A stretch of 64,000 nucleotides of DNA. It comes from Escherichia phage JLBYU50. Under the pieces are notes generated by a model, which saw only the letters and a list, made by a program, of their open reading frames with translations, was not told where the DNA came from and searched no databases. The stretch lies in the sequence record OK272470.1. The stretch is one strand, 5' to 3'. Below, piece by piece: positions 1 to 12,751 of the stretch (position 1 is the first letter of the stretch; each line of letters opens with the position of its first letter). The translations under genes were made by a program, and so were the position numbers.

Positions 1-106
1 CCACAACAAAATCCAGCGGTTTGTCTGTTACTGTGTTCAGTGCGGAAATAGACAGACCATCACCAGAAATCAGGGTTACGCAAGATTTGAAATTTTTAGC
101 AAACAT
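1..106 (-). CDS. hypothetical protein, N-terminal fragment (gene continues beyond left edge)
   Basis: ATG at 106..104 on minus strand preceded by GAGGAG (rc of 113..118, 6-nt spacer); frame open to position 1; absent from ORF track because truncated. Confidence 0.4.
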   Translation of the reverse strand, partial: MFAKNFKSCVTLISGDGLSISALNTVTDKPLDFVV

Positions 107-116
107 AGTTTTCTCC

Positions 117-395
117 TCAAATAATAACTACAAAATATTTTACACCATCATATTCGACAATATGATCAGGATATTTAAATCCTTTATAAGATTTACCAAA
201 CAGACTAACAGCCTCATTAGCTTTGTTTTGCGGATTACTCAGCCACTGTTCTTCTGTGTAAAACTTAAACTCTGTTCTCTTACCTTCTTTTTCTAAACCA
301 ACAATTTCCTGTGTGATATCTTCAATACCTGCATTCTTCAAGGATTTGATTACCTGACGCAAACCGTGTTTAAAGATATCTTCTGCTGTTAACAT
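117..395 (-). CDS. hypothetical protein (92 aa)
   Basis: ORF track; GGAGG RBS 8 nt upstream of ATG on minus strand. Confidence 0.55.
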   Translation of the reverse strand: MLTAEDIFKHGLRQVIKSLKNAGIEDITQEIVGLEKEGKRTEFKFYTEEQWLSNPQNKANEAVSLFGKSYKGFKYPDHIVEYDGVKYFVVII

Positions 396-407
396 AATAC
401 CTCCAAC

Positions 408-431
408 AAGCCCCCGAAGGGGCTTTATTTC
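408..431. terminator. GC-rich stem-loop AAGCCCC-CGAA-GGGGCTT followed by TATTTCTT
   Basis: perfect 7-bp stem with tetraloop; U-tract lies on the + strand although flanking genes are on minus. Confidence 0.4.
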
Positions 432-1154
432 TTAAGCAATGATTGCTGCGATATTAGGTTTAACAAAGGTAGATGGTTTCATAATTTTACCTTTGTCATC
501 AAAGAATACGTACACCTTTTGAACTTCGTTATATACAGCATGTACCCCAGTATAAGAACCTTCTGCACGATCTTTGCTTCGCATCTCGATAGCATCGCAC
601 TCTTTTTCAAGAGCTTCAATAATATCCTTAGTTTCCCAAATAGCCAGGAGTTGCTTCTTGGTAGGATACTTGGACTCATTGCTATTCAACACTTCACGCA
701 TAACCTTCTTCTCGTTATAAACAGAACGCACCAAAGTATCTCGTGCCATACGTGTAAGTGTAAGAGACATTAAGGCAAATTGCAAGTCATTTTCTACCAT
801 TTTATCAAATTCAATGATAACATCGTAAATGTTTTCTGCCAGAACATCGCCTGTCGGCATTTCCAGAGCTTTATCAACACCTTCTTTACCAAAGAACATA
901 AATGCCAGATAGGATGCTACCACAAAAATATCTGCTGCTGCATCAAGTAATTCAACGTGATCATTTTCCTGTGCTGCTGCTTGAAACTCTTTAAGTTCTT
1001 CTCGTACAAAAGAAAGTTGAGCTTCAAACATCTCTTGAGTAAATTCTGGGGTTACTCCACCGCGTGCCTTAGCATTCCAAGCAACAATTTGATCGGCAGC
1101 TTTGATAAAGAAGCTATTGTCCACTTTTACTTGTTTGAAAAAATTCTCGATCAT
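432..1154 (-). CDS. hypothetical protein; possible all-alpha NTP pyrophosphohydrolase (MazG/HisE-like)
   Basis: ORF track; AAGGAG RBS; acidic motif REELKEFQAAAQENDHVELLDAAADIF resembles the EExxE...E..D metal-binding signature; product weakly supported. Confidence 0.45.
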   Translation of the reverse strand: MIENFFKQVKVDNSFFIKAADQIVAWNAKARGGVTPEFTQEMFEAQLSFVREELKEFQAAAQENDHVELLDAAADIFVVASYLAFMFFGKEGVDKALEMPTGDVLAENIYDVIIEFDKMVENDLQFALMSLTLTRMARDTLVRSVYNEKKVMREVLNSNESKYPTKKQLLAIWETKDIIEALEKECDAIEMRSKDRAEGSYTGVHAVYNEVQKVYVFFDDKGKIMKPSTFVKPNIAAIIA

Positions 1155-1351
1155 TGTTTCTCCTTATTTAAAGTATTGTTCTAACAAAACACTAATGCGA
1201 ACTACCGATTCGCCCATATACGCCCCAGCACAGAGGAAAACAACAAATCTACAAAAATTGCAGTACCATTTGTCCACTGGAAACGAGGTTAACATTATAA
1301 TTGCAATAGCAATTAACATCATAAAAACTGTTACTAATACCATATTACCTC

Positions 1352-2467
1352 TTACTCTGCTGGTTCCCAAGTACCTGGAATCATCTTACGTACACGTACC
1401 CCAACAGGCTTGGTAGGAATACCTTCGTCTGAAAATTCTTCGTACTCTATTTCAACAAATTGACCAATAAGTATCAAAGCATTTTCTTCTTTACGATAGT
1501 TAATGGTTTCATCTGAATCCTTACGCATCAGGAATTCGACTACTTTACCATTTTCCATCTCACCTGTCAATACCCCGTCACCATTTTTATCACGTTTTGC
1601 ACTTACCACCTTAACTTCCAGCGTCTGCCGTGGTTTACGTTTAATAACATCATAAGAACGTTTATCAAACTCGTAAACACCTTGTGCATTACGATACACA
1701 ACACCTTCCGCTTTCTCACGCAGAGCTTTTGCATAGAATTCATCAAACTGCTCTTGGTTTTCAATGTACTCTGTATGTACTACACAAATAAGTTCATCTA
1801 AACCTTTATCTTCAACAACGTCTTTTAGAGCAGCCAAAACTTCAACCCTCTTCTCAAATGGTACAGATGGCACAGGAACATCATATACATAGTATTTAAG
1901 AAGCGGAGTGTTAGCATTATGCTTTTTCCACGCACTATTAATTTGTTGAAGGCTAAGGACACCCAAACCAGCAAAAACTTCACCGTCAAGAGGATGACCA
2001 ACTACTTCTTTAATGAAGGTTGGAATTTCTTTCCAGTGAGGTGGAAGTTTATATACTTCCCCAGCTTTAGATAAACATTCACCTTGCATGTTAATCATTG
2101 AACGTAGACCATTCAATTTATATTGTGCATAACCTGGGAACAAAACACGATCAGCATAATCTTTATAATCCTGACATTTCATGGGTGTGGAAGGAACATG
2201 GTTTTCAGCTTCCTCTTTTGTTTTATAATACCCATTCTTAAGTTGTTTTGTCCATTTGGCAAGAGCTTCTATTTCAGCTTGTTCTTCTGCTGTTGTTTCA
2301 TTTGAGCGACCAATATTTTTAGGTTCTGCTGTATAAGATTTGCTAGTAATCTTTCCACCTAATTGACCATGAGCAACAGTTACAACACTACCTTCGGTAT
2401 AGACTGACCACTGTTTAATTTTACCTGTAGAAGTTTTACCATACAATGTAGGATTAGTTTGTTTCAT
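1352..2467 (-). CDS. ATP-dependent polynucleotide ligase (DNA ligase-like; covalent nucleotidyltransferase superfamily)
   Basis: motif I variant KLNGLR, motif III LDGEVF, motif IV EGVVYR, motif V KRK plus C-terminal OB-like region; start moved to ATG at 2467 (MKQTNPTLYGK) with GGAGG RBS rather than the ORF-track ATG at 2515. Confidence 0.6.
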   Translation of the reverse strand: MKQTNPTLYGKTSTGKIKQWSVYTEGSVVTVAHGQLGGKITSKSYTAEPKNIGRSNETTAEEQAEIEALAKWTKQLKNGYYKTKEEAENHVPSTPMKCQDYKDYADRVLFPGYAQYKLNGLRSMINMQGECLSKAGEVYKLPPHWKEIPTFIKEVVGHPLDGEVFAGLGVLSLQQINSAWKKHNANTPLLKYYVYDVPVPSVPFEKRVEVLAALKDVVEDKGLDELICVVHTEYIENQEQFDEFYAKALREKAEGVVYRNAQGVYEFDKRSYDVIKRKPRQTLEVKVVSAKRDKNGDGVLTGEMENGKVVEFLMRKDSDETINYRKEENALILIGQFVEIEYEEFSDEGIPTKPVGVRVRKMIPGTWEPAE

Positions 2468-2657
2468 CTTTAACCTCCAGTTGCGAAAGAACCCATTTAG
2501 CCATTTCAATTTCACCGTGTAGTCTGCCTAGTTCATAGGCATCATCAATATTACCACCAGTGTAATCATCCACCATAAAGTAAGGATCTTCACTACTGTT
2601 AGGTGCGTTTGCAATTCTCGTTAGTTCTTCAATAAATGTCATAGTTAACCTTACCAA
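2454..2657 (-). CDS. hypothetical protein (67 aa)
   Basis: ORF track; part of tightly packed minus-strand operon. Confidence 0.4.
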   Translation of the reverse strand: MVRLTMTFIEELTRIANAPNSSEDPYFMVDDYTGGNIDDAYELGRLHGEIEMAKWVLSQLEVKDETN

Positions 2658-2875
2658 TTATACACAAGAGTTTGAATTTCTTCCATCAAGTCTTCAAGAT
2701 CTGTATCAACATATTCAGAAGATGTTGCCATAAAGTATGTAATCATTGTGAACCCTTCCGAAGAAAGGGCATCAAGGATATCATTAAACATATCTTCCAT
2801 TTCAGTATTTTCACCAAACGAGAATAACATTTGTTGATCTTCGCTTACACCTTTAACATAGATAGCTGTACTCAT
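2651..2875 (-). CDS. hypothetical protein (74 aa), acidic
   Basis: ORF track; overlaps neighbours by a few nt (operon-style coupling). Confidence 0.4.
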   Translation of the reverse strand: MSTAIYVKGVSEDQQMLFSFGENTEMEDMFNDILDALSSEGFTMITYFMATSSEYVDTDLEDLMEEIQTLVYNW

Positions 2876-2878
2876 ATA

Positions 2879-3199
2879 TTAATCCTTAAGACGTTCATTT
2901 AAATCTGCAATAACATCACCTAAATCTTCACATTCCAGTGTTAACTCTGAAACTTGTTCATTCAAACAAGAAACTTCTTCATTTAGATCTGAAATAATGT
3001 TTTCTAATGAATCTACTTGGTCATCATATGAACGTTTTGTTTCTTCAAGTTCTTCCGTAAGATCATTAATCAAACGGAGCAAAGATAAGATATAGCCGTC
3101 TCCTGTCTCGTTCCTCCACTCACTTCCGTAGCGATAAATAATAATTTCACCATTATCGACTACTGTAAAATACTTACCTTCACCAGAATAAATTTCCAT
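2879..3199 (-). CDS. hypothetical coiled-coil protein (106 aa)
   Basis: ORF track; heptad-rich C-terminal half (LNEEVSCLNEQVSELTLECEDL). Confidence 0.45.
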   Translation of the reverse strand: MEIYSGEGKYFTVVDNGEIIIYRYGSEWRNETGDGYILSLLRLINDLTEELEETKRSYDDQVDSLENIISDLNEEVSCLNEQVSELTLECEDLGDVIADLNERLKD

Positions 3200-3208
3200 A
3201 TACTCTCC

Positions 3209-3613
3209 TTATTGTAGTTTAAGTGAACTGCGAAGACGTTTCTCTTGCTGATCACGAATATGTTGTGGAACCTCATGAATTGAATCGTTACCGTGCCTAT
3301 TTTCAACTACTAAAGAGATAACTTGATAACCAAACTCTTCAGCAAGAGTTAAATAAGGTTTAAGTTCTTTCTCTGTGGTTGAAGTGTTAGAGACAATAAT
3401 CTTTTTAATATTAGATGCCATAGCATCACGAACAATACTCTGACACCATGCGTGTGCTTTACCTACATTCTCTGGCTTCCAATCGTAAACACCACTTTCT
3501 GTGTAATGATATTGATCTGCCTCACAGATAGGCCAATAACCTTCAGAAATAATTTCTGCTACTGTAGATTTACCTGCACCTGAAACACCACGTAAGATGA
3601 TAAGTTGTTTCAT
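3209..3613 (-). CDS. P-loop polynucleotide 5'-kinase-like protein
   Basis: Walker A GVSGAGKST near N-terminus; small single-domain kinase; abuts RNA ligase gene (stop/start adjacent at 3613/3614). Confidence 0.6.
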   Translation of the reverse strand: MKQLIILRGVSGAGKSTVAEIISEGYWPICEADQYHYTESGVYDWKPENVGKAHAWCQSIVRDAMASNIKKIIVSNTSTTEKELKPYLTLAEEFGYQVISLVVENRHGNDSIHEVPQHIRDQQEKRLRSSLKLQ

Positions 3614-4546
3614 TTAGCCTCCAAAGAAGTTTTCTATTTCTTTACGTCGCTCTTGTGGATCTAAAGCAGCCCATTGAGTCTTAGTAAAGTTGTTTCGAAG
3701 CCATTCTAGCAAAGTATAATATTCTTCGTCAACAATTTGTTTAGCATTGTTTGGGTTGTCCCAAATCATATCCCACTTCTTATTGCCACCACGCATAAGG
3801 AATTTTTTAGCAAGATAGTATGGTGACTTAATCTTTAACAGTAAGTTAAACGGGTAGTTTGTTTCACGAACAACAAACCCTTCGTGTTTACAATGTTTAG
3901 ACATTTCAACAACATCTGAAAATTTAATCATCGGATAAACTTCAGGACGTTTAAATTTTGTAATAGATGCAATCCCATCAAGAACACCTTCAGGTAGCAT
4001 GAAACTTGTCCCATCAGGATTTTGAATCCTTGCTCCGATTAAGTATGCGCCTGGTTCTTCTTCAACAATATGTGGATCAGAAGGATCACAGATTTCAAAA
4101 AGAAAAGTTGCTTTTGCACTTTCTGTCCACTTAATGAAATACTCTATGTCGTCACACTCGGAAACAATACGGTTCTTTGCCATAATTGCGAAATCTGATT
4201 CTAGGCTCCCTGTTGTTGATACAACAAGTTTCCCTTTGTACACACCTACAGATGCCATAAAACCGTTTACTTTACGGACAGCATCTACAATTTCGTCTGC
4301 TGGAAGATTTGTACCATTTTCAAAACGATTAAAGATTTTAGTAAAAGGCCAAATAACAACATTGTCTTCTGAGTCAACAACCAACCCACGACAATCTAAA
4401 AGTCGTTTGTCAACGTTCCACAAGTTATCCCAGAATACATTGTTTTTGTATTTAAGTACAGCAAGACCAGCATACTCTCCAGATTTAACTTCTTTTTTAT
4501 GCACTAAACCTTTTGCAATCAGGTCATCACAATTGAACTTAGCCAC
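3614..4546 (-). CDS. RNA ligase, T4 Rnl1-like
   Basis: LLDCRGLVV...KIFNRFENG matches T4 Rnl1 N-terminal block (ALECRGIMF...KFFNLNE); adenylation motif KVNGFM; FLFEICDP and LLKIKSPYY blocks. Confidence 0.75.
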   Translation of the reverse strand: MAKFNCDDLIAKGLVHKKEVKSGEYAGLAVLKYKNNVFWDNLWNVDKRLLDCRGLVVDSEDNVVIWPFTKIFNRFENGTNLPADEIVDAVRKVNGFMASVGVYKGKLVVSTTGSLESDFAIMAKNRIVSECDDIEYFIKWTESAKATFLFEICDPSDPHIVEEEPGAYLIGARIQNPDGTSFMLPEGVLDGIASITKFKRPEVYPMIKFSDVVEMSKHCKHEGFVVRETNYPFNLLLKIKSPYYLAKKFLMRGGNKKWDMIWDNPNNAKQIVDEEYYTLLEWLRNNFTKTQWAALDPQERRKEIENFFGG

Positions 4547-4547
4547 C

Positions 4548-5099
4548 TTAATCTCCTTTGATTATCTTATGATGATCTACAACAATAATATCACGCTTAT
4601 CCATAATAGAGATGATTTCGTCAAAATGCAAGATTTTCCCGTGTGCATCCCAACCAACATCCAACATTTTCCCATACAAATGATCAGGGAATGATCCGTG
4701 AGAGTGTCCGTGTAGCATGATTGATCCATGCCCTTGTTTATTCCAGGCAGCCATAGGGTAATGGCTTAAGACGAAAAACAGCTTCTGATATTTCACTTCG
4801 TCATAATAAACCACTTCTCCATACTCTGCAAGCACTTTTCTGTGTTTACTGTAATCATGGTTCCCAACACAGTAAGTAATATCCCCTTGGAGACGGGAAG
4901 CAATCTTACGGGTATCTTCTTCAGTCCCGAAACAGAAGTCCCCAAGATGGTACATCTTTACTCCTGGTGTTGTGGCACATTTATTCCATGCTTCGATCAG
5001 TGCTTCTGTCATATGCTCCATATCTTCCCACGGACGATATTCAGGAGCAAACTCTCGGATACGTTTGTGCATAAAATGCAAATCACTTGTAATAAACAT
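4548..5099 (-). CDS. calcineurin-like metallophosphoesterase
   Basis: complete metallophosphatase signature: SDLHF, HLGDF, VGNHDY, LHGHSHG. Confidence 0.75.
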   Translation of the reverse strand: MFITSDLHFMHKRIREFAPEYRPWEDMEHMTEALIEAWNKCATTPGVKMYHLGDFCFGTEEDTRKIASRLQGDITYCVGNHDYSKHRKVLAEYGEVVYYDEVKYQKLFFVLSHYPMAAWNKQGHGSIMLHGHSHGSFPDHLYGKMLDVGWDAHGKILHFDEIISIMDKRDIIVVDHHKIIKGD

Positions 5100-5458
5100 T
5101 AGTATAATCCCTCGCTGAATAGTTCACTGTTGTGACCATTTCTTTCGTAATTAATTTGTTTGGCGTTATCTGCAATGATATAAGCATCTTTGCGACTCCA
5201 CCAGTTATAATACTGGTCAATAAACCCTTGATTATCAGGTAAGCAAAACAGTTTATCAATCAATCCTGCATCTTTTAAAACATTAAGTTGTGCAGATAGT
5301 ACAGGATTTGCATGCCTAACACAAGGAATAATTAACTCTTTGCCATTGTTGAGAATATACTTATTCGCAGCGCAGACTATAACACGTTGAGCATAGTGAT
5401 CCTCACCAATCCAAGTAAGAGGTTGGTAACAAATATCATGTTGATTAGTAGCGCACAT
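5099..5458 (-). CDS. hypothetical protein (119 aa)
   Basis: ORF track frame; start placed at ATG 5458 (ORF track used TTG at 5461). Confidence 0.45.
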   Translation of the reverse strand: MCATNQHDICYQPLTWIGEDHYAQRVIVCAANKYILNNGKELIIPCVRHANPVLSAQLNVLKDAGLIDKLFCLPDNQGFIDQYYNWWSRKDAYIIADNAKQINYERNGHNSELFSEGLY

Positions 5459-5607
5459 CAATTTTCTCCATACTCTTTTAATTTATCAGCGAAAAAACTG
5501 TAATCAGGAAGTAAAAGATCATTACTCGTATCGCTACAGTTTTCTTCCTCTTTATAGATAAAATGCCCTTCATCCTCTTCTTGCTCTGACCAAACTGAGT
5601 AATGCAT
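5458..5607 (-). CDS. small acidic hypothetical protein (49 aa)
   Basis: below ORF-track size cut-off; ATG at 5607..5605, stop TGA overlaps ATG of downstream gene (ATGA-type coupling); weak RBS. Confidence 0.3.
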   Translation of the reverse strand: MHYSVWSEQEEDEGHFIYKEEENCSDTSNDLLLPDYSFFADKLKEYGEN

Positions 5608-5616
5608 AATACCTAC

Positions 5617-5991
5617 TTAATAGTTAACACGTTTAATTTCAACACCATAGGATGAAATAAAATTTTCCTTAGCTAACATATATTTACCAGCAGCAGAAGG
5701 ATTTGATGTATGAACATAGATAGTTTTAAGAGCATCCCATTCACCCGCGTACAACATACATTCTACGTCTAAGAACGCATGATATCCTTCTTGATCTTCT
5801 CCAAGATCATTATCGAAGTGTATCTCTGAGATATTATTGAAATTATCTTCATCTGAAACAAAAGATAACCAATCCTCAAAAGATTTTAACCAAATGGCAT
5901 CCTCATAACCATAATCTTTAGGATCTCTTAAATCGTCTAACCAAAGAATTTTAGCCACTATCAACCCCCTTCCTGTTTCTCTTCTTTCCAA
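5617..5991 (-). CDS. hypothetical protein (124 aa)
   Basis: ORF track. Confidence 0.45.
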   Translation of the reverse strand: MERRETGRGLIVAKILWLDDLRDPKDYGYEDAIWLKSFEDWLSFVSDEDNFNNISEIHFDNDLGEDQEGYHAFLDVECMLYAGEWDALKTIYVHTSNPSAAGKYMLAKENFISSYGVEIKRVNY

Positions 5992-6152
5992 GTTTTACCA
6001 TTATCTACCAACTTCTTAGAAACAGCAAATCTTTCTCCATTGATATAAAACAAATAAAGAATAAAGGATTTTCCTATAGTTACAGTATCTGCTACTTCTA
6101 CACGCTTTACACCTTGCATGTATTTGGCTTTACCTGAATAAATAAGAAACAT
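5961..6152 (-). CDS. hypothetical protein (63 aa)
   Basis: ORF track; overlaps neighbours. Confidence 0.3.
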   Translation of the reverse strand: MFLIYSGKAKYMQGVKRVEVADTVTIGKSFILYLFYINGERFAVSKKLVDNGKTWKEEKQEGG

Positions 6153-6430
6153 TACTTATTCCTTTTGTTGTTGATCACATCTAAAGCTGTGTAAGGTTTG
6201 TTTGTACCGCTGTATTCAAGAATAATTGGTGCATGTTCATAGACCAACTCAAAAGTACCATACACAGAATCTGCAACTGAAATAAGCATTTCAGTGCCTT
6301 CATCGTTCTTAATTAATGAAAACCTTGCCCCTGGTTTATTTAGCACTTCATATTTCTTACCTGCTGTCAGCAAACCTGAATACCATTCATTTTGCACAAC
6401 AGACAAACACTTCAGATAGGTTTTTCTCAT
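6152..6430 (-). CDS. hypothetical protein (92 aa)
   Basis: ORF track. Confidence 0.4.
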   Translation of the reverse strand: MRKTYLKCLSVVQNEWYSGLLTAGKKYEVLNKPGARFSLIKNDEGTEMLISVADSVYGTFELVYEHAPIILEYSGTNKPYTALDVINNKRNK

Positions 6431-6768
6431 TTCTTTTTGCTCCTTCTTTTAGGCTTCTCGTATAAACCTAACACAGCAGACTCTTTTGCACAGATAGGAA
6501 CTGACTTCATTCCTCGTTTTTTAGCTTCTGGTAGATTCAAAACCCACCAGCCAAACCAGTACAATTCATCTTCTGTGAAAGGATCTGCCATAGGATCTGC
6601 ATCACGTGCTTCAAATTTAGCAAGAGCTTCTTCTATCTTTTCTATTGGAGTATCAAAGACAAAAGCCTCTGTGTCAAATTTTTGTTTCTTAGGAGCGGCT
6701 TTTGCCGCCCCATCTTTAGATGCGCGCTTTGTTACGGATCGCTTCTTCGGTGTTTTCGCCATCAACAA
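6427..6768 (-). CDS. hypothetical protein with highly basic N-terminus (possible nucleic-acid binding)
   Basis: ORF track; KKRSVTKRASKDGAAKAAPKKQK lysine-rich tail and KRRSKKK C-terminus. Confidence 0.45.
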   Translation of the reverse strand: MLMAKTPKKRSVTKRASKDGAAKAAPKKQKFDTEAFVFDTPIEKIEEALAKFEARDADPMADPFTEDELYWFGWWVLNLPEAKKRGMKSVPICAKESAVLGLYEKPKRRSKKK

Positions 6769-6955
6769 CCTCCATGCGGTGTAAGAAATCTTGCTGGAAT
6801 CGCCAATACTGTTGACCAGTCCTTACATCTTCGTAGATCACAACAGGATCAAATACTTTAGATACACCCGCTGGTTTAGGAAAGCCAACTACACGATATA
6901 AACCGCCTTTGCTAATACAAGAATATGTTACATCAGTTAAAATTTCTTTTTTCAT
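6716..6955 (-). CDS. hypothetical protein (79 aa)
   Basis: ORF track. Confidence 0.4.
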   Translation of the reverse strand: MKKEILTDVTYSCISKGGLYRVVGFPKPAGVSKVFDPVVIYEDVRTGQQYWRFQQDFLHRMEVVDGENTEEAIRNKARI

Positions 6956-7149
6956 TTCTTAATAAACTCCAATACAGGTACGTGATCAGCAGTTAAAGTT
7001 ACACAATTGTAACTTACCTTTTCAACTTCAGAGAATGCTTCAACCCATAGCAAGAAATTCTCTTTAGCTTCTTCATAATTCAATGTTGACTTAACAACAT
7101 GGAACTCACCAAGGATGACTCTATAGATTGTTTGCATAGTTTGATTCAT
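6952..7149 (-). CDS. hypothetical protein (65 aa)
   Basis: ORF track. Confidence 0.4.
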   Translation of the reverse strand: MNQTMQTIYRVILGEFHVVKSTLNYEEAKENFLLWVEAFSEVEKVSYNCVTLTADHVPVLEFIKK

Positions 7150-7215
7150 TTATTTTTCCTTTGTTTAAAATGTGTTAAACAATCGCAAATGCTTGTGACG
7201 CACTTTGTGATCCCA

Positions 7216-7584
7216 CTAATTAATGTCAGCACTATGATTGTTGAGAGTATAGGATACTCCATCGCCCAAGTCAACATGAATCTCAACTCCTAACTGTCTT
7301 TCTAATGGTAAACGTTTTGAGAATTGATAATTACAAAGTTTACAGTCTAAGTCAAGCAACTCATGTTTGCTTAAACCTGGGATGATAACTTTGCTTCCCA
7401 CTGTCCACTCAATACCTTCAAAGTTATCTCTTCTTTTCAAAATGTCAAGTAAGAAGATGATTTGTTGCCATTCCGTAGACAAGTCTTCTTCATAGAACGC
7501 AGAACAAAAAGTTTTATCATCGTAGAAAGCATACATTATGCCTCCATCTATTGTTTCACTTCTAACGTAACGTGTGACCCTCAT
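7216..7584 (-). CDS. hypothetical protein (122 aa), first gene of minus-strand operon
   Basis: ORF track; AGGAGG RBS directly upstream on minus strand. Confidence 0.45.
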   Translation of the reverse strand: MRVTRYVRSETIDGGIMYAFYDDKTFCSAFYEEDLSTEWQQIIFLLDILKRRDNFEGIEWTVGSKVIIPGLSKHELLDLDCKLCNYQFSKRLPLERQLGVEIHVDLGDGVSYTLNNHSADIN

Positions 7585-7715
7585 TATTTCCTCCTGTACG
7601 GCTCTGTAACGAGCTAATAGCCTCTAAGATATGCAACCACCTTACCTCACAGTAAAACTCGTTACAATCGTTTTTAGGAGGTTTAGGTTGTACTTAAAAA
7701 TAATCTAAAAAGGTG

Positions 7716-7744
7716 TTGACAAACGCAAAAAAGTATGCTACCCT
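7716..7744 (+). promoter_or_regulatory. sigma70-like promoter (TTGACA-N17-TGcTACCCT)
   Basis: perfect -35 hexamer at 7716-7721, extended -10 at 7736-7744. Confidence 0.4.
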
Positions 7745-7925
7745 AACCCCCGAAAAACGCCGAGCGCAGCGAGGGGGTGTTATCTAATCTTGTGATACAT
7801 GATCTAACAGACAACTTAGTAGTCTACATATAGCACTATGTTATGTCTATAATACTAACATACATGCTCTATACTAACAATAGATTCTTTATTAATTTTA
7901 TTATTAATTAAATAATAAATATCTA

Positions 7926-7954
7926 TTGACTTTAGATCTATCTGTATGTAGAGT
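7926..7954 (+). promoter_or_regulatory. sigma70-like promoter upstream of Prs-like gene
   Basis: TTGACT at 7926-7931, 17-nt spacer, TAGAGT at 7949-7954; followed by AAGGAG RBS. Confidence 0.5.
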
Positions 7955-7993
7955 AGAGAACATAAAGTCCTAACTCAACTAAGGAGATAAACA

Positions 7994-8887
7994 ATGAAAG
8001 TTAGTATTCTGCATGGTGTTGACTGTTATGTTACTGATGTAGACGTTAAAGTCTTTACATTCTCTGGTGGAGAACAGCATGTTCAACTAGATACGAATCT
8101 ATCAGGTTTCAATCATGCTACAGACAGAATCTTACTCACTTTAGAAGTAAGATCTGCTAAAGACTTGATGACTTTGGTTATGACTAAGAATGCATTGGAC
8201 AATATGCTATATCATAAACCATATTGTGTTGATTTGCTCATGTTGTATGTGCCGTATGCACGACAAGACAGAGTGTGTGAGCCTGGGGAAGCATTCGGAG
8301 TTAAAGCCTTTGCTTCTATAATTAATTCATTAAATTTCTCACGTGTTATCGTTGCTGATCCACATAGTGATGTTACGCCAGCAGTGTTTGACAGACTCTG
8401 TGTAATACCTCAAGAAGAGATTGCTTACGAAACTTTAAAGTGGAAGTTACGTATGGAGAATTTTGCTCTTGTTAGTCCTGATGGTGGTGCTCTTAAGAAA
8501 ATATTTAAATTATCTAAGAAAATGTCTTTAGATGTGTTCTGTGCAGAGAAGGTTAGAGATACTGCAACAGGTGCTATTGTTCGTACAGACATTTCTGTAC
8601 AGGATTTCAATAAGCGTAACCTGATGATCGTAGATGATATCTGTGATGGTGGTAGAACTTTTATCGAATTGGCTAAAGTGCTACGTGCTCGTAACGCAGG
8701 TAAGATTGAGTTATATGTTACACACGGTATCTTTTCTAAAGGTCTTAAAGAGTTAAGTGAGCACTTTGACTGCATTCATTCTCTTAATGTGTGGGAAGAT
8801 AACATCCAAGAAGATTCCGGTGTTCTTGTTAAGAATCAGCCAGATTTGCAACAACAAATTGTATCTCCATACGTGTGGAATTTTTAA
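7994..8887 (+). CDS. ribose-phosphate pyrophosphokinase (Prs)-like protein; candidate PRPP or ADP-ribose pyrophosphokinase
   Basis: YVPYARQDR, VIVADPHS, VSPDGGAL and PRTase-type nucleotide loop LMIVDDICDGGRTF; strong RBS. Confidence 0.8.
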   Translation: MKVSILHGVDCYVTDVDVKVFTFSGGEQHVQLDTNLSGFNHATDRILLTLEVRSAKDLMTLVMTKNALDNMLYHKPYCVDLLMLYVPYARQDRVCEPGEAFGVKAFASIINSLNFSRVIVADPHSDVTPAVFDRLCVIPQEEIAYETLKWKLRMENFALVSPDGGALKKIFKLSKKMSLDVFCAEKVRDTATGAIVRTDISVQDFNKRNLMIVDDICDGGRTFIELAKVLRARNAGKIELYVTHGIFSKGLKELSEHFDCIHSLNVWEDNIQEDSGVLVKNQPDLQQQIVSPYVWNF

Positions 8888-8897
8888 ATAATAAGTG

Positions 8898-8926
8898 TTG
8901 ACAATAGGGAGTATGCTTAGTAAGAT
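8898..8926 (+). promoter_or_regulatory. sigma70-like promoter upstream of Nampt-family gene
   Basis: TTGACA 8898-8903, 17-nt spacer, TAAGAT 8921-8926. Confidence 0.5.
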
Positions 8927-8958
8927 ACTCCCACACTAACAAACAAGGAGACATAACT

Positions 8959-10692
8959 ATGAATATTTTTGCACCTTTTGCTACTGATTGGTATAAACCT
9001 GGTCACAAGCAGATGTACAACCAAAATACAAAACTCATTTTCTCTAATTTAACTCCTCGTAATGATAAAAACTTTGCACACTATGCAGATCGTGAAGCAC
9101 GTGGTGTGATTGTTTTAGGTATTCGTCGAGCAGTTACTGATGCTCTTGTAACTATGTGGGATGGCTTCTTTAAAATGTCTCGTAGTGCAGCAGTAAATAA
9201 ATTTTATCGTATGTCTAAGAATGCATTAGGTGCTTCTGCTCCTTCTGCTGAATGTTGGGGAGAATTGCACGATTTAGGTTATCTTCCGCTAGAAGTTCGA
9301 TCTCTGCCAGAAGGTGTTTTGTGTCCTATTGGTGTTCCTGTGTTTACTGTGCATAACACTTTAGAAAAATTCTTTTGGTTAACTAACTATGTGGAAACAC
9401 TCTTGTCAGATGAAACTTGGAAGACAATGACTAATGCCACAGCAGCTTTTCAGTATAAGCGTATCGCTATGGCGTATGCGATGGCAACGTGTGATAACAT
9501 TGATCACGTTAATTTCCAGTGTCATGATTTTAGTCTACGTGGCTTAAGCAATATCGAAGATGGTTATAAGAGTGGTATCGCTCATTTGGCATCTTTCACA
9601 GGAACAGATAATATTCTGGCTATTGAAACTGTGCATGATTACTATGGTATTGATTATGATCAATTTGTTGCAGGTTCTATTCCGGCAACAGAACATTCAG
9701 TAGCAACGACTAATATTGGAGCTATTGTTGAAGATCTGAAGAAACATTTCCCACATCTTAAAGATGATGTTGATGGGCTTCGTTATGTAGCAGAGAAAGA
9801 GTTTCTTCGCCGCTATATTGAAGAAATTGTTCCAGAAGGTTTTTGTTCATATGTAGCAGATTCTTATGATTACTGGGCTGTCTTGACTCGCATTCTGGTA
9901 GAATTGAAAGAGTCCATTATGTCACGAAATGGTCGTCTTGTTATTCGTCCAGATTCAGGAGATCCGGTTAAAGTTGTTGCAGGATACAATGTTGAATCTT
10001 TTGATAACTATGAAGACCTTTTAAATAATGGTATTGCGACAGCTACTGAAGTAGTTCATTTGGCTGATGTTAATAAGTATTACAATGTTCTTCAGGATTG
10101 TAGCGTTGCTGATTGTATTGATGAAACTTATGAGATTCCTTATTGTGAAGCAGTAGGTTCTATTCAAATCCTTTGGGAAGTGTTTGGCGGTACTATCAAT
10201 CGAAAAGGCTACAAGGTTCTTGATCAGCACATCGGTATGATTTATGGTGATTCTATTACTGTTGAACGAGAACACGAAATCTTACTCCGACTGAAGAAGA
10301 AAGGCTTTGCTGCTTCCAATATTGTATTTGGTGTTGGTAGTTATACTTATCAGTTCAATACACGAGATACTTTTGGTTTTGCTGTTAAAGCAACAGGTAG
10401 TATCATCGGTGAACACGAAATTTTGGTAAGTAAGGAGCCTAAAACTGATCCTGGTAAACGCTCTGCAAAAGGTTTTATTAAGGTTGTTAAGGATACAAAT
10501 GGTAAACTTTCTCTTGTGGATAATCTTTCTTTTAAAGATATTCAAGATGAAGACAATGAGTTAAAAGTTATCTTCAGGGATGGTACGGTTATTACACCAC
10601 AAGTAGAAGGACGTGATGAAACATTTACTGATATCCGCAACCGTGTTGATGTAGAGGTTCTTCGTACTATGGGAACCATCCAGGTTGACTAA
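8959..10692 (+). CDS. nicotinamide phosphoribosyltransferase (Nampt)-family protein
   Basis: block-by-block match to Nampt: ATDWYKPGHKQ, LPEGV..FTVHNT..FWLTNYVETLL, HDFSLRGLS, FTGTDN, PATEHSV, ADSYDYW, VIRPDSGDP, IVFGVGS..NTRD, DPGKRSAKG. Confidence 0.85.
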   Translation: MNIFAPFATDWYKPGHKQMYNQNTKLIFSNLTPRNDKNFAHYADREARGVIVLGIRRAVTDALVTMWDGFFKMSRSAAVNKFYRMSKNALGASAPSAECWGELHDLGYLPLEVRSLPEGVLCPIGVPVFTVHNTLEKFFWLTNYVETLLSDETWKTMTNATAAFQYKRIAMAYAMATCDNIDHVNFQCHDFSLRGLSNIEDGYKSGIAHLASFTGTDNILAIETVHDYYGIDYDQFVAGSIPATEHSVATTNIGAIVEDLKKHFPHLKDDVDGLRYVAEKEFLRRYIEEIVPEGFCSYVADSYDYWAVLTRILVELKESIMSRNGRLVIRPDSGDPVKVVAGYNVESFDNYEDLLNNGIATATEVVHLADVNKYYNVLQDCSVADCIDETYEIPYCEAVGSIQILWEVFGGTINRKGYKVLDQHIGMIYGDSITVEREHEILLRLKKKGFAASNIVFGVGSYTYQFNTRDTFGFAVKATGSIIGEHEILVSKEPKTDPGKRSAKGFIKVVKDTNGKLSLVDNLSFKDIQDEDNELKVIFRDGTVITPQVEGRDETFTDIRNRVDVEVLRTMGTIQVD

Positions 10693-11438: not shown

Positions 11439-11514
11439 GGTTCCATAGCTCACTGACGAGAGCGCACACCTCATAAGTGTCGAGGGCAGGGATTGTAACC
11501 CTGGGGAACCACCA
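11439..11514 (+). tRNA. tRNA with CAT anticodon (Met/Ile-type), non-canonical D- and T-loops
   Basis: complete cloverleaf: acceptor GGTTCCA/GGGAACC, D-stem GCTC/GAGC, anticodon loop CTCATAA, T-stem CAGGG/CCCTG, encoded ACCA; T-loop is ATTGTAA rather than TTCRANY. Confidence 0.45.
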
Positions 11515-11545
11515 TTTAAAAGGAGGTGCTATGCATCTCCTATAT

Positions 11546-11631
11546 GCAAGTGTGGTGGAATTGGTGATACACATTGTGCTTAAAACGCAACGCTTAAATG
11601 CTTGAGGGTTCGAATCCCTCCACTTGCACCA
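11546..11631 (+). tRNA. tRNA-Leu (anticodon TAA)
   Basis: acceptor GCAAGTG/CACTTGC, anticodon loop CTTAAAA, long variable arm, T-loop GGTTCGAATCC, ACCA encoded. Confidence 0.8.
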
Positions 11632-11647
11632 ACACCTAAAAAAATAT

Positions 11648-11677
11648 CTTGACATTTACTTAGTTTTTTGTTATAGT
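11648..11677 (+). promoter_or_regulatory. sigma70-like promoter inside tRNA array
   Basis: TTGACA 11648-11653, 18-nt spacer, TATAGT 11672-11677. Confidence 0.45.
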
Positions 11678-11687
11678 TACTATGAAA

Positions 11688-11769
11688 ACGGGGTGTATCT
11701 CACCTGACTTCTAATCAGGCGTTAACCGAGTAATTGGAGTATGCAGGTTCGAATCCTGTCACCCCGGCC
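11688..11769 (+). tRNA. atypical tRNA-like gene, anticodon hairpin reads TCT (Arg-type)
   Basis: perfect acceptor CGGGGTG/CACCCCG, canonical T-arm GCAGG-TTCGAAT-CCTGT, GCCA 3' end, perfect hairpin CCTGA-CTTCTAA-TCAGG; no conventional D-arm fits between acceptor and this hairpin. Confidence 0.4.
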
Positions 11770-11787
11770 AAAAAGTTTTAAAAACTA

Positions 11788-11817
11788 CTTGACAAGCAAG
11801 ATAGTTTTATGTTAGAT
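11788..11817 (+). promoter_or_regulatory. sigma70-like promoter inside tRNA array
   Basis: TTGACA 11788-11793, 18-nt spacer, TAGATT 11812-11817. Confidence 0.4.
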
Positions 11818-11833
11818 TTAAAGTATAATAACT

Positions 11834-11923
11834 GGAAGGTAGGGCGCAGCGGTGCGCAACCAGGTTTGAACCCTGGCCCATTGTAGCGATACGGTGATGG
11901 TTCGACTCCATTATCTTCCTCCA
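11834..11923 (+). tRNA. tRNA-Ser (anticodon TGA)
   Basis: acceptor GGAAGGT/ATCTTCC, anticodon stem CCAGG/CCTGG with loop TTTGAAC, long variable arm, T-loop TTCGACT, TCCA 3' end. Confidence 0.7.
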
Positions 11924-11929
11924 AATTCA

Positions 11930-12094
11930 ATGAGTGATTTTATGAATTATAAAACTATTGGACAGGTTGTTACCGGAGTTAAGATTGTAAATAATAAAGT
12001 TGTTTATGAGTATTCTAATCTTCAACAATCTGAAGATGGTAAGAATATTCGTATGGTAAAAGAAGAACAAAAAGATTCCGGTTGTTTTGAATAA
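11930..12094 (+). CDS. possible small protein (54 aa) between tRNA genes
   Basis: ORF-track ORF 11894..12094 starts inside the tRNA-Ser; first ATG after the tRNA is at 11930; no clear RBS. Confidence 0.25.
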   Translation: MSDFMNYKTIGQVVTGVKIVNNKVVYEYSNLQQSEDGKNIRMVKEEQKDSGCFE

Positions 12095-12102
12095 TTAAAA
12101 AC

Positions 12103-12188
12103 GGTAGATTGGTGAAATGGTAGCCACAACAGTTTGCTAAACTGTCGTCGGAAACGGCGTGTAGGTTCAAGTCCTACATCTACCGCCA
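12103..12188 (+). tRNA. tRNA-Ser (anticodon GCT)
   Basis: acceptor GGTAGAT/ATCTACC, anticodon stem ACAGT/ACTGT loop TTGCTAA, long variable arm, T-arm TAGG-TTCAAGT-CCTA, GCCA. Confidence 0.8.
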
Positions 12189-12315
12189 AGTTATCTTTAA
12201 TGTAGCTTGTCATCTTACTTTAATAGAGTAAACTTTCGGCAGATGGCCCCCCACCATCTTACCGATATCCCATAGTCAAGTGCCGCAAACACTGGCTATT
12301 TTAAAGATAATTTAT

Positions 12316-12391
12316 ACATCGTTAGCTTAGTTGGTAGAGCAAGGGGCTTTTAACTCCAAGGTCGAAGGTTCGAATCCTTCACGATGTACCA
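12316..12391 (+). tRNA. tRNA-Lys (anticodon TTT)
   Basis: acceptor ACATCGT/ACGATGT, D-arm TAGCTTAGTTGGTAGAGC, anticodon loop CTTTTAA, T-loop GGTTCGAATCC, ACCA. Confidence 0.75.
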
Positions 12392-12396
12392 AACAC

Positions 12397-12483
12397 GTAG
12401 GTATCGCATAGCGGCAATTGCTGGAGACTGTAAATCTCTTGCCCTTCGGGGCTTCGTTGGTTCGAGTCCAACTACCTGCACCA
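12397..12483 (+). tRNA. tRNA-Tyr (anticodon GTA)
   Basis: acceptor GTAGGTA/TACCTGC, anticodon loop CTGTAAA, long variable arm, T-arm GTTGG-TTCGAGT-CCAAC, ACCA. Confidence 0.75.
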
Positions 12484-12490
12484 AATTAAA

Positions 12491-12575
12491 GATGGATTGG
12501 CCTAGTGGTTGGGCGACGGACTGTTAATCCGTGAACGAAAGTTCTAGCAAGGTTCAAATCCTTGATCCATCGCCA
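12491..12575 (+). tRNA. tRNA with GTT anticodon (Asn-type) carrying a long variable arm
   Basis: acceptor GATGGAT/ATCCATC, anticodon stem ACGGA/TCCGT loop CTGTTAA, 15-nt variable hairpin GAAC-GAAA-GTTC, T-loop GGTTCAAATCC, GCCA. Confidence 0.55.
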
Positions 12576-12580
12576 AATAG

Positions 12581-12646
12581 TGCTTGTAGAGTTAATAGAA
12601 ACCTCTAGAATTTTCTAGAATTGTAGGTATCAAATCCTACCAAGCA
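12581..12646 (+). other. degenerate tRNA-like remnant
   Basis: acceptor-like TGCTTG/CAAGCA and T-arm-like GTAGG-TATCAAAT-CCTAC, but no foldable anticodon arm and no CCA. Confidence 0.25.
12604..12620. repeat. tandem direct repeat TCTAGAA-TTT-TCTAGAA
   Basis: two copies of TCTAGAA (each containing palindromic TCTAGA) separated by TTT, read directly at 12604-12620. Confidence 0.7.
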
Positions 12647-12654
12647 AATATTTT

Positions 12655-12729
12655 GCTCCTATCGTATAACGGCTATTACGGTTGCCTTGTAAGCAACTTA
12701 TCAGGGTTCGAGTCCTTGTGGGAGCACCA
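12655..12729 (+). tRNA. tRNA-Thr (anticodon TGT)
   Basis: acceptor GCTCCTA/TGGGAGC, anticodon stem GTTGC/GCAAC loop CTTGTAA, T-loop GGGTTCGAGTCC, ACCA. Confidence 0.8.
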
Positions 12730-12751
12730 ATTTAACTCTAAAGGAGTGTAT

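What the first reader, a model, noticed from the sequence alone, without database searches (positions are those of the whole stretch)
3209..5099. Three-gene RNA healing-and-sealing module (kinase, Rnl1-like ligase, metallophosphoesterase)
Seen: three abutting minus-strand genes with 0-1 nt gaps. They encode a calcineurin-type metallophosphoesterase (DxH, GDF, GNHD, GHSHG), an Rnl1-family RNA ligase (CRGLVV, KVNGFM, KIKS) and a single-domain P-loop kinase (GVSGAGKST). Established: T4 Pnkp plus Rnl1 repair tRNAs cut by host anticodon nucleases, and bacterial Pnkp/Hen1 systems combine kinase, metallophosphoesterase and ligase. Inference: a split RNA-repair operon in which a lambda-phosphatase-fold enzyme replaces the HAD phosphatase of T4 Pnkp, probably protecting host or phage tRNAs from tRNA-cleaving defence nucleases. 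The same phage also carries a large tRNA array and a tRNA-nucleotidyltransferase-like gene.
Basis: partly seen in the sequence, partly recalled or inferred. Interest (0 to 1): 0.7.

Follow-up and report, generated by a model that had tools for sequence, protein, structure and literature searches.

The report
Phage three-gene RNA break-repair module
A phi92-like E. coli phage carries three tightly packed genes (a phosphoesterase, a T4-type RNA ligase and a small polynucleotide kinase) that almost certainly work together to mend cut RNAs such as tRNAs; the set is real and widespread in phages, but it has already been annotated and described computationally and has never been tested at the bench.

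Summary
Three abutting minus-strand genes (3209-3613, 3614-4546, 4548-5099) encode a P-loop kinase, an Rnl1/Trl1-clade RNA ligase and a metallophosphoesterase (MPE). Each has a complete, conserved catalytic motif set.

The window is a phi92-like Escherichia phage (Justusliebigvirus).

Functional coupling is well supported:
- Among 80 ligase-anchored viral loci (39-96% identity), 75 carry the kinase and 65 carry the MPE. Gene order is shuffled, and 12 loci have kinase-ligase fusions.
- Cardiobacteriaceae have a kinase-ligase fusion followed by the MPE.
- Leptolyngbyaceae cyanobacteria fuse kinase, MPE and this ligase family into one ~712-aa protein.

- The MPE belongs to the uncharacterised Aquifex aq_1665 subfamily. 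It resembles lambda-phosphatase and CthPnkp only at superfamily level.
- Many relatives of the MPE are not linked to a ligase.
- The operon also includes an unknown 120-aa gene and a cREC "cyclic-phosphate processing" gene upstream.
- The "tRNA nucleotidyltransferase" is only a weak, sub-threshold match.

Novelty is low. GenBank records already name these genes, and Iyer et al. 2022 described this neighbourhood type in rV5/Mydo-like phages. No biochemical or genetic test was found. I rate it a new member of a known kind, interest about 0.35.

The parts
3209..3613 (-). Single-domain P-loop kinase (134 aa), predicted RNA 5'-OH polynucleotide kinase
   Evidence: Pfam AAA_33 6.9e-10; PHROG 2071 8.9e-58 and PHROG 505 'polynucleotide kinase' 5.8e-9. 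Best PDB profile hits are RNA-repair kinases: Pnkp1 4XRP 1.6e-5, T4 Pnk 1LY1 1.5e-4, CthPnkp kinase domain 4GP7 4e-4. Invariant G12-x-G14-K15-S/T, D33 (aligned to T4 Pnk D35), H36 and R106. Fused to the ligase in 12 viral loci and in Cardiobacteriaceae.
3614..4546 (-). Rnl1/Trl1-clade ATP-dependent RNA ligase (310 aa, GTG start)
   Evidence: Pfam RNA_lig_T4_1 6.3e-15 (56 bits against a cut-off of 28); PHROG 562 5.3e-69. Profile hit to T4 Rnl1 2C5U at 4.6e-9. AlphaFold model pLDDT 89.2; Foldseek top hits are the Candida glabrata Trl1 ligase domain (2.8e-13) and T4 Rnl1 (4.5e-13, TM 0.64), well ahead of Rnl3, Rnl2, Rnl5 and DNA ligases. Invariant K92-x-N94-G95, E151, E222-G223, K238-x-K240.
4548..5099 (-). 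Small binuclear metallophosphoesterase (183 aa) of the Aquifex aq_1665 type; predicted 2',3'-cyclic phosphodiesterase / 3'-phosphatase for RNA 3'-end healing (inferred)
5099..5458 (-). Accessory, lineage-specific: conserved 120-aa protein of unknown function (PHROG 839), translationally coupled to the MPE
   Evidence: Its stop overlaps the MPE ATG (TAATG). PHROG 839 2.7e-47. No Pfam or PDB match. 310 relatives in the representative library. Invariant A31-A32, R49-H50, Q78-G79-F80, S116-E117. Found beside the module in only 3 of 80 ligase loci.
5617..5958 (-). Accessory, lineage-specific: cREC (cyclic-phosphate-processing receiver-like) protein
   Evidence: Pfam cREC_REC PF20274 3e-14 (53.9 bits against a cut-off of 27). 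Predicted, but not tested, to open cyclic phosphates (PMC7824862 and PMC9503650). Present in 10 of 80 ligase loci. In Mydo-like phages it lies between the ligase and the kinase.

Best explanation
The three genes form a co-translated RNA end-healing and sealing module of a phi92-like phage.

Proposed mechanism:
1. An RNA, most plausibly a tRNA anticodon loop, is cut by a metal-independent ribonuclease. This leaves a 2',3'-cyclic phosphate end and a 5'-OH end.
2. The small metallophosphoesterase opens the cyclic phosphate and removes the resulting phosphate, giving a 3'-OH. In this lineage the upstream cREC protein may help.
3. The 134-aa P-loop kinase phosphorylates the 5'-OH using ATP.
4. The Rnl1/Trl1-type ligase adenylylates itself on Lys92, transfers AMP to the 5'-phosphate and seals the break.

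What is shown: the domain identities, intact catalytic residues, tight operon structure, conserved linkage across divergent phages, and fusion proteins that join the same families.

What is inferred: the substrate of each enzyme (above all the MPE), the identity of the RNA, and the biological role of countering tRNA-cleaving defence or toxin nucleases, alongside the phage's 16 tRNA genes.
For: ORFs, motifs and 0-1 nt junctions with internal Shine-Dalgarno sites.

Ligase: Pfam 6.3e-15. Sequence profile and predicted fold are closest to T4 Rnl1 and fungal Trl1 ligase domains. All nucleotidyltransferase motif residues are invariant.

Kinase: best solved relatives are polynucleotide 5'-kinases of RNA-repair systems (Pnkp1, T4 Pnk, CthPnkp, fungal Trl1 kinase). 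K15, S16 and D33 align to T4 Pnk K15, S16 and D35.

MPE: full six-motif metal site and a confident MPE fold.

Linkage: of 80 ligase-anchored IMG/VR loci, 75 have the kinase domain and 65 have the MPE, with 58 having both within 3 kb. Orders are mpe-lig-kin (27) and kin-lig-mpe (23), mostly on the same strand.

Fusions: 12 kinase-ligase fusions, for example L126 9581-10846. Cardiobacteriaceae have a kin+lig fusion followed by the MPE. About 28 Leptolyngbyaceae genomes encode one protein made of a CthPnkp-like kinase, a CthPnkp-like MPE and this ligase family.

Ligase-linked MPEs form coherent sequence clusters.

Precedent: the MPE domains of CthPnkp and lambda-Pase hydrolyse 2',3'-cyclic phosphates (PMC2190708). 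T4 Pnkp plus Rnl1 counter the PrrC anticodon nuclease (established knowledge).

An independent computational prediction covers the rV5/Mydo neighbourhood (PMC9503650).
Against: No enzyme of this phage family has been assayed, and no experimental paper was found.

37 of the 80 closest MPE loci have no ligase within 10 kb; their neighbours include peptide deformylase and Nudix genes.

A phi92-like contig (L003) retains cREC, the 120-aa gene and the MPE but lacks the ligase and kinase. The 12 kinase-ligase fusion loci lack an MPE. So the MPE is not obligatory.

In the kinase, the position of T4 Pnk R38 holds an invariant His, and R106 aligns to R122 rather than to the essential R126.

An ATP-dependent DNA ligase lies 0.7 kb downstream and co-occurs in 28 of 80 loci.

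Shared synteny among related phages is not independent evidence of function.
Confidence: 0.7

Rival explanations
1. Only the kinase and ligase form the repair pair. The MPE has a different, ligase-independent job, such as hydrolysing nucleotide or cyclic-nucleotide/ADP-ribose-derived signals or another phosphoester. 3'-end healing is then done by cREC, by a host enzyme, or is not needed because the relevant nucleases leave 3'-OH ends.
For: 37 of the 80 closest MPE loci lack the ligase, and their neighbours include Nudix, peptide deformylase and HAD-like genes. L003 keeps the MPE without the ligase and kinase. The 12 kinase-ligase fusion loci have no MPE. The nearest structural relatives (aq_1665, YfcE, MJ0936, LpxH) are generic phosphodiesterases or pyrophosphatases, not RNA-end enzymes. 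The MPE sits next to cREC and near NAD-salvage genes.
Against: 65 of 80 ligase loci carry the MPE, usually abutting the ligase on the same strand and in two different orders. The MPE is translationally coupled to the ligase here. Cardiobacteriaceae place the same MPE type directly after a kinase-ligase fusion. Cyanobacteria fuse an MPE between the kinase and this ligase family. Ligase-linked MPEs cluster separately from unlinked ones.
Confidence: 0.17
2. The kinase and MPE heal DNA ends (5'-OH, 3'-phosphate) for the ATP-dependent DNA ligase encoded just downstream. The module would then be a DNA-break repair unit rather than an RNA one.
For: An ATP-dependent DNA ligase lies at 1352-2515 (Pfam 6.7e-11; PHROG 114 8.5e-75). 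It co-occurs in 28 of 80 ligase loci. T4 Pnkp also acts on DNA (established knowledge). Some MPE relatives, such as Mre11/SbcD and the P. putida MPE nuclease, act on DNA.
Against: The kinase is fused to the RNA ligase, never to the DNA ligase, in the loci examined. The trifunctional cyanobacterial protein carries the Rnl1-type domain. The DNA ligase is absent from most loci that carry the triad. Three small ORFs separate it from the kinase here.
Confidence: 0.07
3. The adjacency reflects shared early-gene expression in one phage lineage rather than a joint pathway. For example, the 'ligase' would act mainly as a tail-fibre attachment factor like T4 gp63, and the kinase would be a nucleotide kinase.
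For: PHROG and GenBank labels include 'tail fiber protein attachment catalyst' and 'nucleoside/nucleotide kinase'. The whole minus-strand block is a tightly packed run of small genes with no clear internal promoters or terminators.
Against: These labels are transferred annotation. Linkage persists at 39-50% identity across Escherichia, Pseudomonas and Vibrio phages and in bacteria, in different gene orders. Fusion proteins exist. Catalytic ligase and kinase residues are strictly conserved. The best kinase relatives are polynucleotide kinases.
Confidence: 0.04

Closest known systems
Phage T4 Pnkp + Rnl1 tRNA repair pathway (countermeasure to the PrrC anticodon nuclease)
   Same: A phage-encoded 5'-kinase, a 3'-end phosphoesterase and an Rnl1-family ligase. 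The ligase fold and motifs match T4 Rnl1. Kinase residues K15, S16 and D33 match T4 Pnk K15, S16 and D35. The phage also carries its own tRNAs.
   Different: The kinase is a free-standing 134-aa protein rather than fused to a HAD (DxDxT) phosphatase. The phosphoesterase is a binuclear MPE, an unrelated fold and mechanism. The ligase is 310 aa against 374, with a C-terminal helical region about half as long, and motif I is KxNG rather than KEDG. Here the three genes are contiguous and translationally coupled. No target nuclease is known.
Clostridium thermocellum Pnkp (kinase-MPE-ligase) / Hen1 and Capnocytophaga Pnkp1-Rnl-Hen1 bacterial RNA repair systems
   Same: They combine a P-loop polynucleotide kinase, a metallophosphoesterase 3'-healing enzyme and an ATP-dependent ligase. 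Pnkp1 and the CthPnkp kinase domain are among the best PDB hits for the phage kinase. Cyanobacterial homologues of the phage ligase are fused to a CthPnkp-like kinase and MPE.
rV5/Mydo-type 'sirtuin-centred' phage RNA-repair neighbourhood of Iyer, Burroughs, Anantharaman and Aravind 2022 (PMC9503650, section 3.7.3)
   Same: It has the same gene families: a T4-like tRNA ligase, cREC, a nucleotide kinase, a MazG pyrophosphatase and a calcineurin-like phosphoesterase. It shows the same synteny with DNA ligase and NAMPT/PRPP-synthetase genes.
   Different: The phi92-like version has no Sir2-like gene. In Mydo one sits between the kinase and the DNA ligase, while here three small ORFs fill that space. 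cREC lies upstream rather than between the ligase and kinase. In my survey the MPE is a core partner (65 of 80 loci), not 'occasional', and cREC is the rarer one (10 of 80).
Fungal/plant tRNA ligase Trl1 (ligase-kinase-CPD)
   Same: The Trl1 ligase domain is the top structural match to the phage ligase. It follows the same heal-and-seal logic with a P-loop kinase.
   Different: Trl1 uses a 2H cyclic phosphodiesterase, needs a 2'-phosphate for sealing and then Tpt1. None of these partners was found here. Whether the phage ligase needs a 2'-phosphate is unknown.

Membership tests
Rnl1-family ATP-dependent RNA ligase (Pfam PF09511; T4 Rnl1 / Trl1 ligase clade) | Match to the family model above the curated threshold | tested here: met
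   RNA_lig_T4_1 E 6.3e-15, 56.1 bits against a cut-off of 28.3, covering model positions 2-227 of 227.
Rnl1-family ATP-dependent RNA ligase (Pfam PF09511; T4 Rnl1 / Trl1 ligase clade) | Covalent nucleotidyltransferase motifs: motif I lysine (KxxG), motif III Glu, motif IV EG, motif V KxK | tested here: met
   K92-V-N94-G95, E151, E222-G223 and K238-I-K240 are invariant in 18 homologues down to 49% identity. They align to the T4 Rnl1 KEDG, EG and KIK segments.
Rnl1-family ATP-dependent RNA ligase (Pfam PF09511; T4 Rnl1 / Trl1 ligase clade) | Fold closer to Rnl1/Trl1 than to the Rnl2, Rnl3, Rnl5 or DNA ligase clades | tested here: met
   Foldseek: Trl1 ligase domain 2.8e-13 and T4 Rnl1 4.5e-13 (TM 0.64); Rnl3 about 1e-10; Rnl2 about 2e-7; Rnl5 about 1e-5; DNA ligases 1e-3 or weaker.
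Rnl1-family ATP-dependent RNA ligase (Pfam PF09511; T4 Rnl1 / Trl1 ligase clade) | ATP-dependent sealing of 3'-OH/5'-PO4 RNA ends (tRNA anticodon-loop breaks) | not testable with these tools
   Needs enzyme assays.
Polynucleotide 5'-hydroxyl kinase (T4 Pnk / CthPnkp kinase-domain type) | P-loop GxxGxGK[ST] and the catalytic Asp that activates the 5'-OH (T4 Pnk D35) | tested here: met
   G9-V-S-G12-A-G14-K15-S16 and D33 are invariant. K15, S16 and D33 align to T4 Pnk K15, S16 and D35.
Polynucleotide 5'-hydroxyl kinase (T4 Pnk / CthPnkp kinase-domain type) | The essential arginines of T4 Pnk (R38, R126) that bind the phosphoacceptor and ATP | tested here: inconclusive
   The R38 position holds an invariant His36. 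The invariant R106 aligns to R122, four residues from R126, in a loosely aligned lid segment.
Polynucleotide 5'-hydroxyl kinase (T4 Pnk / CthPnkp kinase-domain type) | Closest characterised relatives are polynucleotide kinases rather than nucleoside/nucleotide kinases | tested here: met
   Profile against PDB: Pnkp1 1.6e-5, fungal Trl1-type kinase 1e-4, T4 Pnk 1.5e-4, CthPnkp kinase 4e-4. Gluconate and adenylate kinases match only over the P-loop. The E-values are modest.
Polynucleotide 5'-hydroxyl kinase (T4 Pnk / CthPnkp kinase-domain type) | Phosphorylation of 5'-OH RNA ends | not testable with these tools
   Needs enzyme assays. Fusion to the RNA ligase in 12 viral and 4 bacterial loci is indirect support.
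Calcineurin-like binuclear metallophosphoesterase superfamily | Six metal-binding/catalytic motifs: DxH, GD, GNH[DE], H, GH, GxH | tested here: met
   D6-x-H8, G53-D54, G79-N80-H81, H113 and G131-H132-x-H134 are invariant in 25 homologues down to 38% identity.
Calcineurin-like binuclear metallophosphoesterase superfamily | MPE fold | tested here: met
Lambda-phosphatase / CthPnkp-phosphatase subfamily of MPEs (those shown to heal RNA 2',3'-cyclic phosphate ends) | Specific sequence or structural similarity to lambda-Pase or the CthPnkp phosphatase domain | tested here: not met
Pnkp/Hen1 bacterial RNA repair system | Presence of a Hen1 2'-O-methyltransferase partner | tested here: not met
   No methyltransferase domain among the ORFs scanned between 117 and 7584. 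The only methylase found in the window is a DNA N6/N4 methylase at 54140-54871.
Sirtuin-centred phage RNA-repair neighbourhood (Iyer et al. 2022, type 2) | A Sir2-like gene linked to ligase, cREC, kinase and MazG | tested here: not met
   Ligase, cREC, kinase, MazG and MPE are all present, but no Sir2 match in any neighbouring ORF at E up to 5. In Mydo the Sir2-like gene sits between the kinase and the DNA ligase.

The most novel reading that the evidence does not exclude
The aq_1665-type metallophosphoesterase would be a previously unrecognised, dedicated RNA 3'-end-healing enzyme family. That would give a function to an orphan structural-genomics protein family. Together with cREC and the uncharacterised 120-aa PHROG-839 protein, it would form a multi-step 3'-end clean-up pathway. 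This pathway would let rV5-, phi92-, PaP1- and Vibrio-type phages repair tRNAs cut by several classes of defence nucleases (PrrC/RloC, HEPN and others), acting as a broad anti-defence module alongside their tRNA arrays.
Probability: 0.2. Interest if true: 0.6.

Novelty: new member of a known kind. Interest (0 to 1): 0.35.

Why it matters
tRNA-cleaving nucleases are now recognised as common anti-phage effectors. Phage counter-measures beyond the T4 Pnkp/Rnl1 pair and decoy tRNAs are poorly charted.

This module is present in more than 600 cultured phage genomes, including therapy-relevant E. coli, Klebsiella, Pseudomonas, Acinetobacter and Vibrio phages. It sits in phages of the BASEL collection that grow on E. 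coli K-12.

Showing that the triad heals and seals tRNA would achieve three things:
- extend the T4 paradigm to a large group of phages;
- assign a function to the orphan aq_1665 MPE family;
- help predict which phages escape RNA-targeting defences.

As it stands, this is a well-supported but unsurprising prediction that others have already made in outline.

Tried and rejected
1. Single-sequence PDB searches were uninformative for the ligase and weak for the kinase. Profiles were needed.

2. I looked for the Sir2-like partner described for rV5/Mydo phages among ten neighbouring small ORFs. None was found. The Mydo annotation shows where it would be.

3. I tried to identify the 120-aa PHROG-839 protein with Pfam (E up to 5), with Pfam on ten longer relatives, and with a PDB profile search. 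Nothing emerged.

4. I looked for a tRNA nucleotidyltransferase. The distal minus-strand genes are a DNA methylase, PolA, a primase-helicase and glycosyltransferases. The phi92 annotation of the tRNA region lists none. Only ORF 56338-56931 gives a sub-threshold PolyA_pol head match.

5. Promoter and terminator scans over 1-8200 showed no excess over shuffles, so operon boundaries could not be set.

6. I could not read Burroughs & Aravind 2016 (NAR); it is not held.

7. Literature searches for experimental work on this module in phi92, rV5 or PVP-SE1-like phages, or on phage RNA-repair modules as anti-defence, returned nothing relevant.

8. I considered and rejected the idea that the MPE family is exclusively RNA-repair linked. 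Nearly half of its closest relatives are not.
Full report
**What is there**

The window comes from a phi92-like Escherichia phage (Justusliebigvirus, Stephanstirmvirinae). Its first 8 kb is 99% identical to phage vB_Eco_J-01 and 98% identical to phi92 itself. The finding's coordinates correspond to phi92 gp095-gp097.

- 3209-3613, 134 aa
- 3614-4546, 310 aa, GTG start
- 4548-5099, 183 aa

The junctions are as tight as described. The ligase stop is followed directly by the kinase ATG. The phosphoesterase stop is 1 nt from the ligase GTG. Each start has a Shine-Dalgarno sequence inside the preceding gene. The upstream 120-aa ORF overlaps the phosphoesterase start (TAATG), so at least four genes are translationally coupled. 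Simple promoter and terminator scans show no excess over shuffled sequence. The genes sit in a long, tightly packed minus-strand block that ends at the divergent intergenic region near 7.6-8.0 kb.

**The ligase**

Pfam RNA_lig_T4_1 matches at 6.3e-15, well above its cut-off. A profile built from 18 homologues finds T4 Rnl1 as the only solved relative by sequence (4.6e-9). The family's KVNG, EG and KIKS segments align to the T4 KEDG, EG and KIKS segments. K92, N94, G95, E151, E222, G223, K238 and K240 are invariant.

An AlphaFold model (pLDDT 89.2) is closest to fungal Trl1 ligase domains and T4 Rnl1 (E about 1e-13, TM about 0.63). Rnl3, Rnl2, Rnl5 and DNA ligases score progressively worse. It is therefore a member of the Rnl1/Trl1 tRNA-ligase clade. 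At 310 aa it is shorter than T4 Rnl1, and its C-terminal helical region (residues 242-307) is shorter too.

**The kinase**

It matches Pfam AAA_33 (6.9e-10) and, among PHROGs, a 'polynucleotide kinase' family. A profile search of PDB ranks polynucleotide kinases from RNA-repair systems first: Capnocytophaga Pnkp1, a fungal Trl1-type kinase, T4 Pnk and the CthPnkp kinase domain, at E 1.6e-5 to 4e-4.

K15, S16 and D33 align with T4 Pnk K15, S16 and the catalytic D35. The R38 position holds an invariant His. The invariant R106 aligns near, but not on, R126. The assignment is good but not airtight on sequence alone.

**The phosphoesterase**

Membership of the MPE subfamily known to heal RNA ends is not met.

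**Evidence that the three work together**

I anchored searches on the ligase and on the MPE in IMG/VR and scored every ORF in the 158 retrieved loci with HMMs of each component.

Among 80 ligase loci (39-96% identity):
- 75 contain the kinase domain and 65 contain the MPE.
- 58 have both within 3 kb.
- Two orders dominate: mpe-lig-kin (27) and kin-lig-mpe (23).
- 12 loci encode a single kinase-ligase fusion protein, for example L126 9581-10846.

In cellular genomes the ligase family appears in two settings. Cardiobacteriaceae carry a kinase-ligase fusion followed by the same MPE type. About 28 Leptolyngbyaceae cyanobacteria carry a ~712-aa trifunctional protein. In Leptolyngbya PCC 7375 this protein consists of a CthPnkp-like kinase (4GP6, 3.5e-11), a CthPnkp-like MPE (4J6O, 2.5e-24) and the Rnl1-type ligase domain.

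These fusions are the strongest computational evidence that this ligase family operates with a polynucleotide kinase and a metallophosphoesterase.

**Evidence that tempers the MPE assignment**

- Of the 80 viral loci with the closest MPE relatives, only 43 have the ligase and 36 the kinase.
- In the others the MPE neighbours are unrelated genes such as peptide deformylase or Nudix.
- A 153-kb phi92-like contig (L003) keeps cREC, the 120-aa gene and an ~88%-identical MPE, but about 340 nt of unrelated DNA replaces the ligase and kinase.
- The kinase-ligase fusion loci lack the MPE.
- Ligase-linked and unlinked MPEs do fall into separate sequence clusters (nearest-neighbour concordance 103 of 122). 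This fits a specialised subgroup, but shared ancestry of the phages could produce the same pattern.

The MPE's role as the 3'-end healing enzyme is therefore a well-motivated inference, not a demonstrated fact. It rests on the precedent that CthPnkp and lambda phosphatase hydrolyse 2',3'-cyclic phosphates (PMC2190708).

**Wider context in the window**

- Upstream of the MPE lie the 120-aa PHROG-839 protein and a cREC protein. PHROG-839 has 310 relatives and strictly conserved RH, QGF and SE motifs, but no Pfam or PDB match. The cREC protein matches PF20274 at 3e-14. The Aravind group predicts that cREC opens cyclic phosphates (PMC7824862, PMC9503650). Both are lineage-specific: 3 and 10 of 80 ligase loci respectively.
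- Downstream lie an ATP-dependent DNA ligase and a MazG-like pyrophosphatase.
- Across the divergent promoter region lie PRPP synthetase and nicotinamide phosphoribosyltransferase, then 16 tRNA genes.
- The same synteny holds in Proteus phage Mydo, where a Sir2-like gene sits between the kinase and the DNA ligase. That gene is absent here.

**Prior knowledge and novelty**

GenBank records already label these genes 'polynucleotide kinase / RNA ligase / putative phosphoesterase' (BASEL phage Bas62) or 'RNA ligase/RNA repair'. Iyer et al. [quoted passage not shown]

The ligase family occurs in 606 cultured phage records. I found no biochemical or genetic study of the module.

My survey adds three points:
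- The MPE-ligase-kinase triad is the conserved core, while cREC and the sirtuin are lineage-specific.
- The MPE belongs to the orphan aq_1665 subfamily.
- Kinase-ligase and kinase-MPE-ligase fusions exist.

These refine an existing picture rather than open a new one.

**Verdict**

The most likely function is RNA (probably tRNA) end healing and sealing (confidence about 0.7). The main rival is that the MPE has a separate role (about 0.17). The finding is a new member of a known, computationally described but experimentally untested kind. Interest is 0.35.

Noticed in passing
window 5099-5458 (-): A 120-aa protein (PHROG 839) whose stop overlaps the MPE start. It defines a ~95-aa domain with 310 relatives, found free-standing or at the C-terminus of 200-430-aa proteins. 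It has invariant A-A, R-H, Q-G-F and S-E motifs and no Pfam or PDB match. It looks like an uncharacterised enzyme family.
   Followed up: partly
L003 9950-11300 (IMGVR_UViG_3300014004_000001): A natural phi92-like variant keeps cREC, the 120-aa gene and an ~88%-identical MPE. About 340 nt of unrelated sequence replaces the ligase and kinase, so the ligase-kinase pair can be lost as a unit.
   Followed up: yes
L182 6768-8906 (Leptolyngbya sp. PCC 7375) and about 28 other Leptolyngbyaceae loci, L164-L195: A ~712-aa trifunctional protein: a CthPnkp-like kinase, a CthPnkp-like metallophosphoesterase and an Rnl1-type ligase domain homologous to the phage ligase. This is a Pnkp-like architecture with an Rnl1-type sealing domain. 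I did not check whether Hen1 lies next to it.
   Followed up: partly
L126 9581-10846 and 12530-13609: A 421-aa kinase-ligase fusion protein on a viral contig. A second, different ligase-like ORF (K-L-D-G motif) lies 1.7 kb downstream, and a GIY-YIG-like homing-endonuclease-type ORF sits between them on the opposite strand. This suggests some phages carry two RNA ligases.
   Followed up: no
window 7994-10692 (+) and L196 (Proteus phage Mydo): PRPP synthetase and nicotinamide phosphoribosyltransferase (NAD salvage) are divergently adjacent to the repair block, in synteny with Mydo. Mydo has a Sir2-like gene between the kinase and the DNA ligase. Here three small ORFs (2454-3199, including a 106-aa coiled-coil protein) take its place.
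   Followed up: partly
window 56338-56931 (-): A 197-aa PHROG-1614 'nucleotidyltransferase' with only a sub-threshold match to the CCA-adding/poly(A) polymerase head domain (19.2 bits against a cut-off of 23). It lies 51 kb from the module, next to the DNA polymerase.
   Followed up: partly
window 11439-14182 (+): ARAGORN finds 16 tRNAs, including three tRNA-Met(CAT), tRNA-Lys(UUU), Tyr and Asn. By position, phi92's 15-entry annotation lists one of them only as a 'hypothetical tRNA'. Several of these isoacceptors are classic targets of anticodon nucleases.
   Followed up: no
search results (records MG065645, MG065656, MG065689, MG065635, MG065666 and others): Several GenBank records named 'Campylobacter phage' (host C. 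jejuni) are 98% identical over 8 kb to these E. coli phi92-like phages, and others carry a ligase gene that matches at the same ~47% protein identity as rV5-like E. coli phages. An 'Acinetobacter phage' carries a ligase 87% identical at protein level to this one, and a 'Serratia phage' carries a kinase 98% identical. These look like host mis-assignments or contaminant phages.
   Followed up: no
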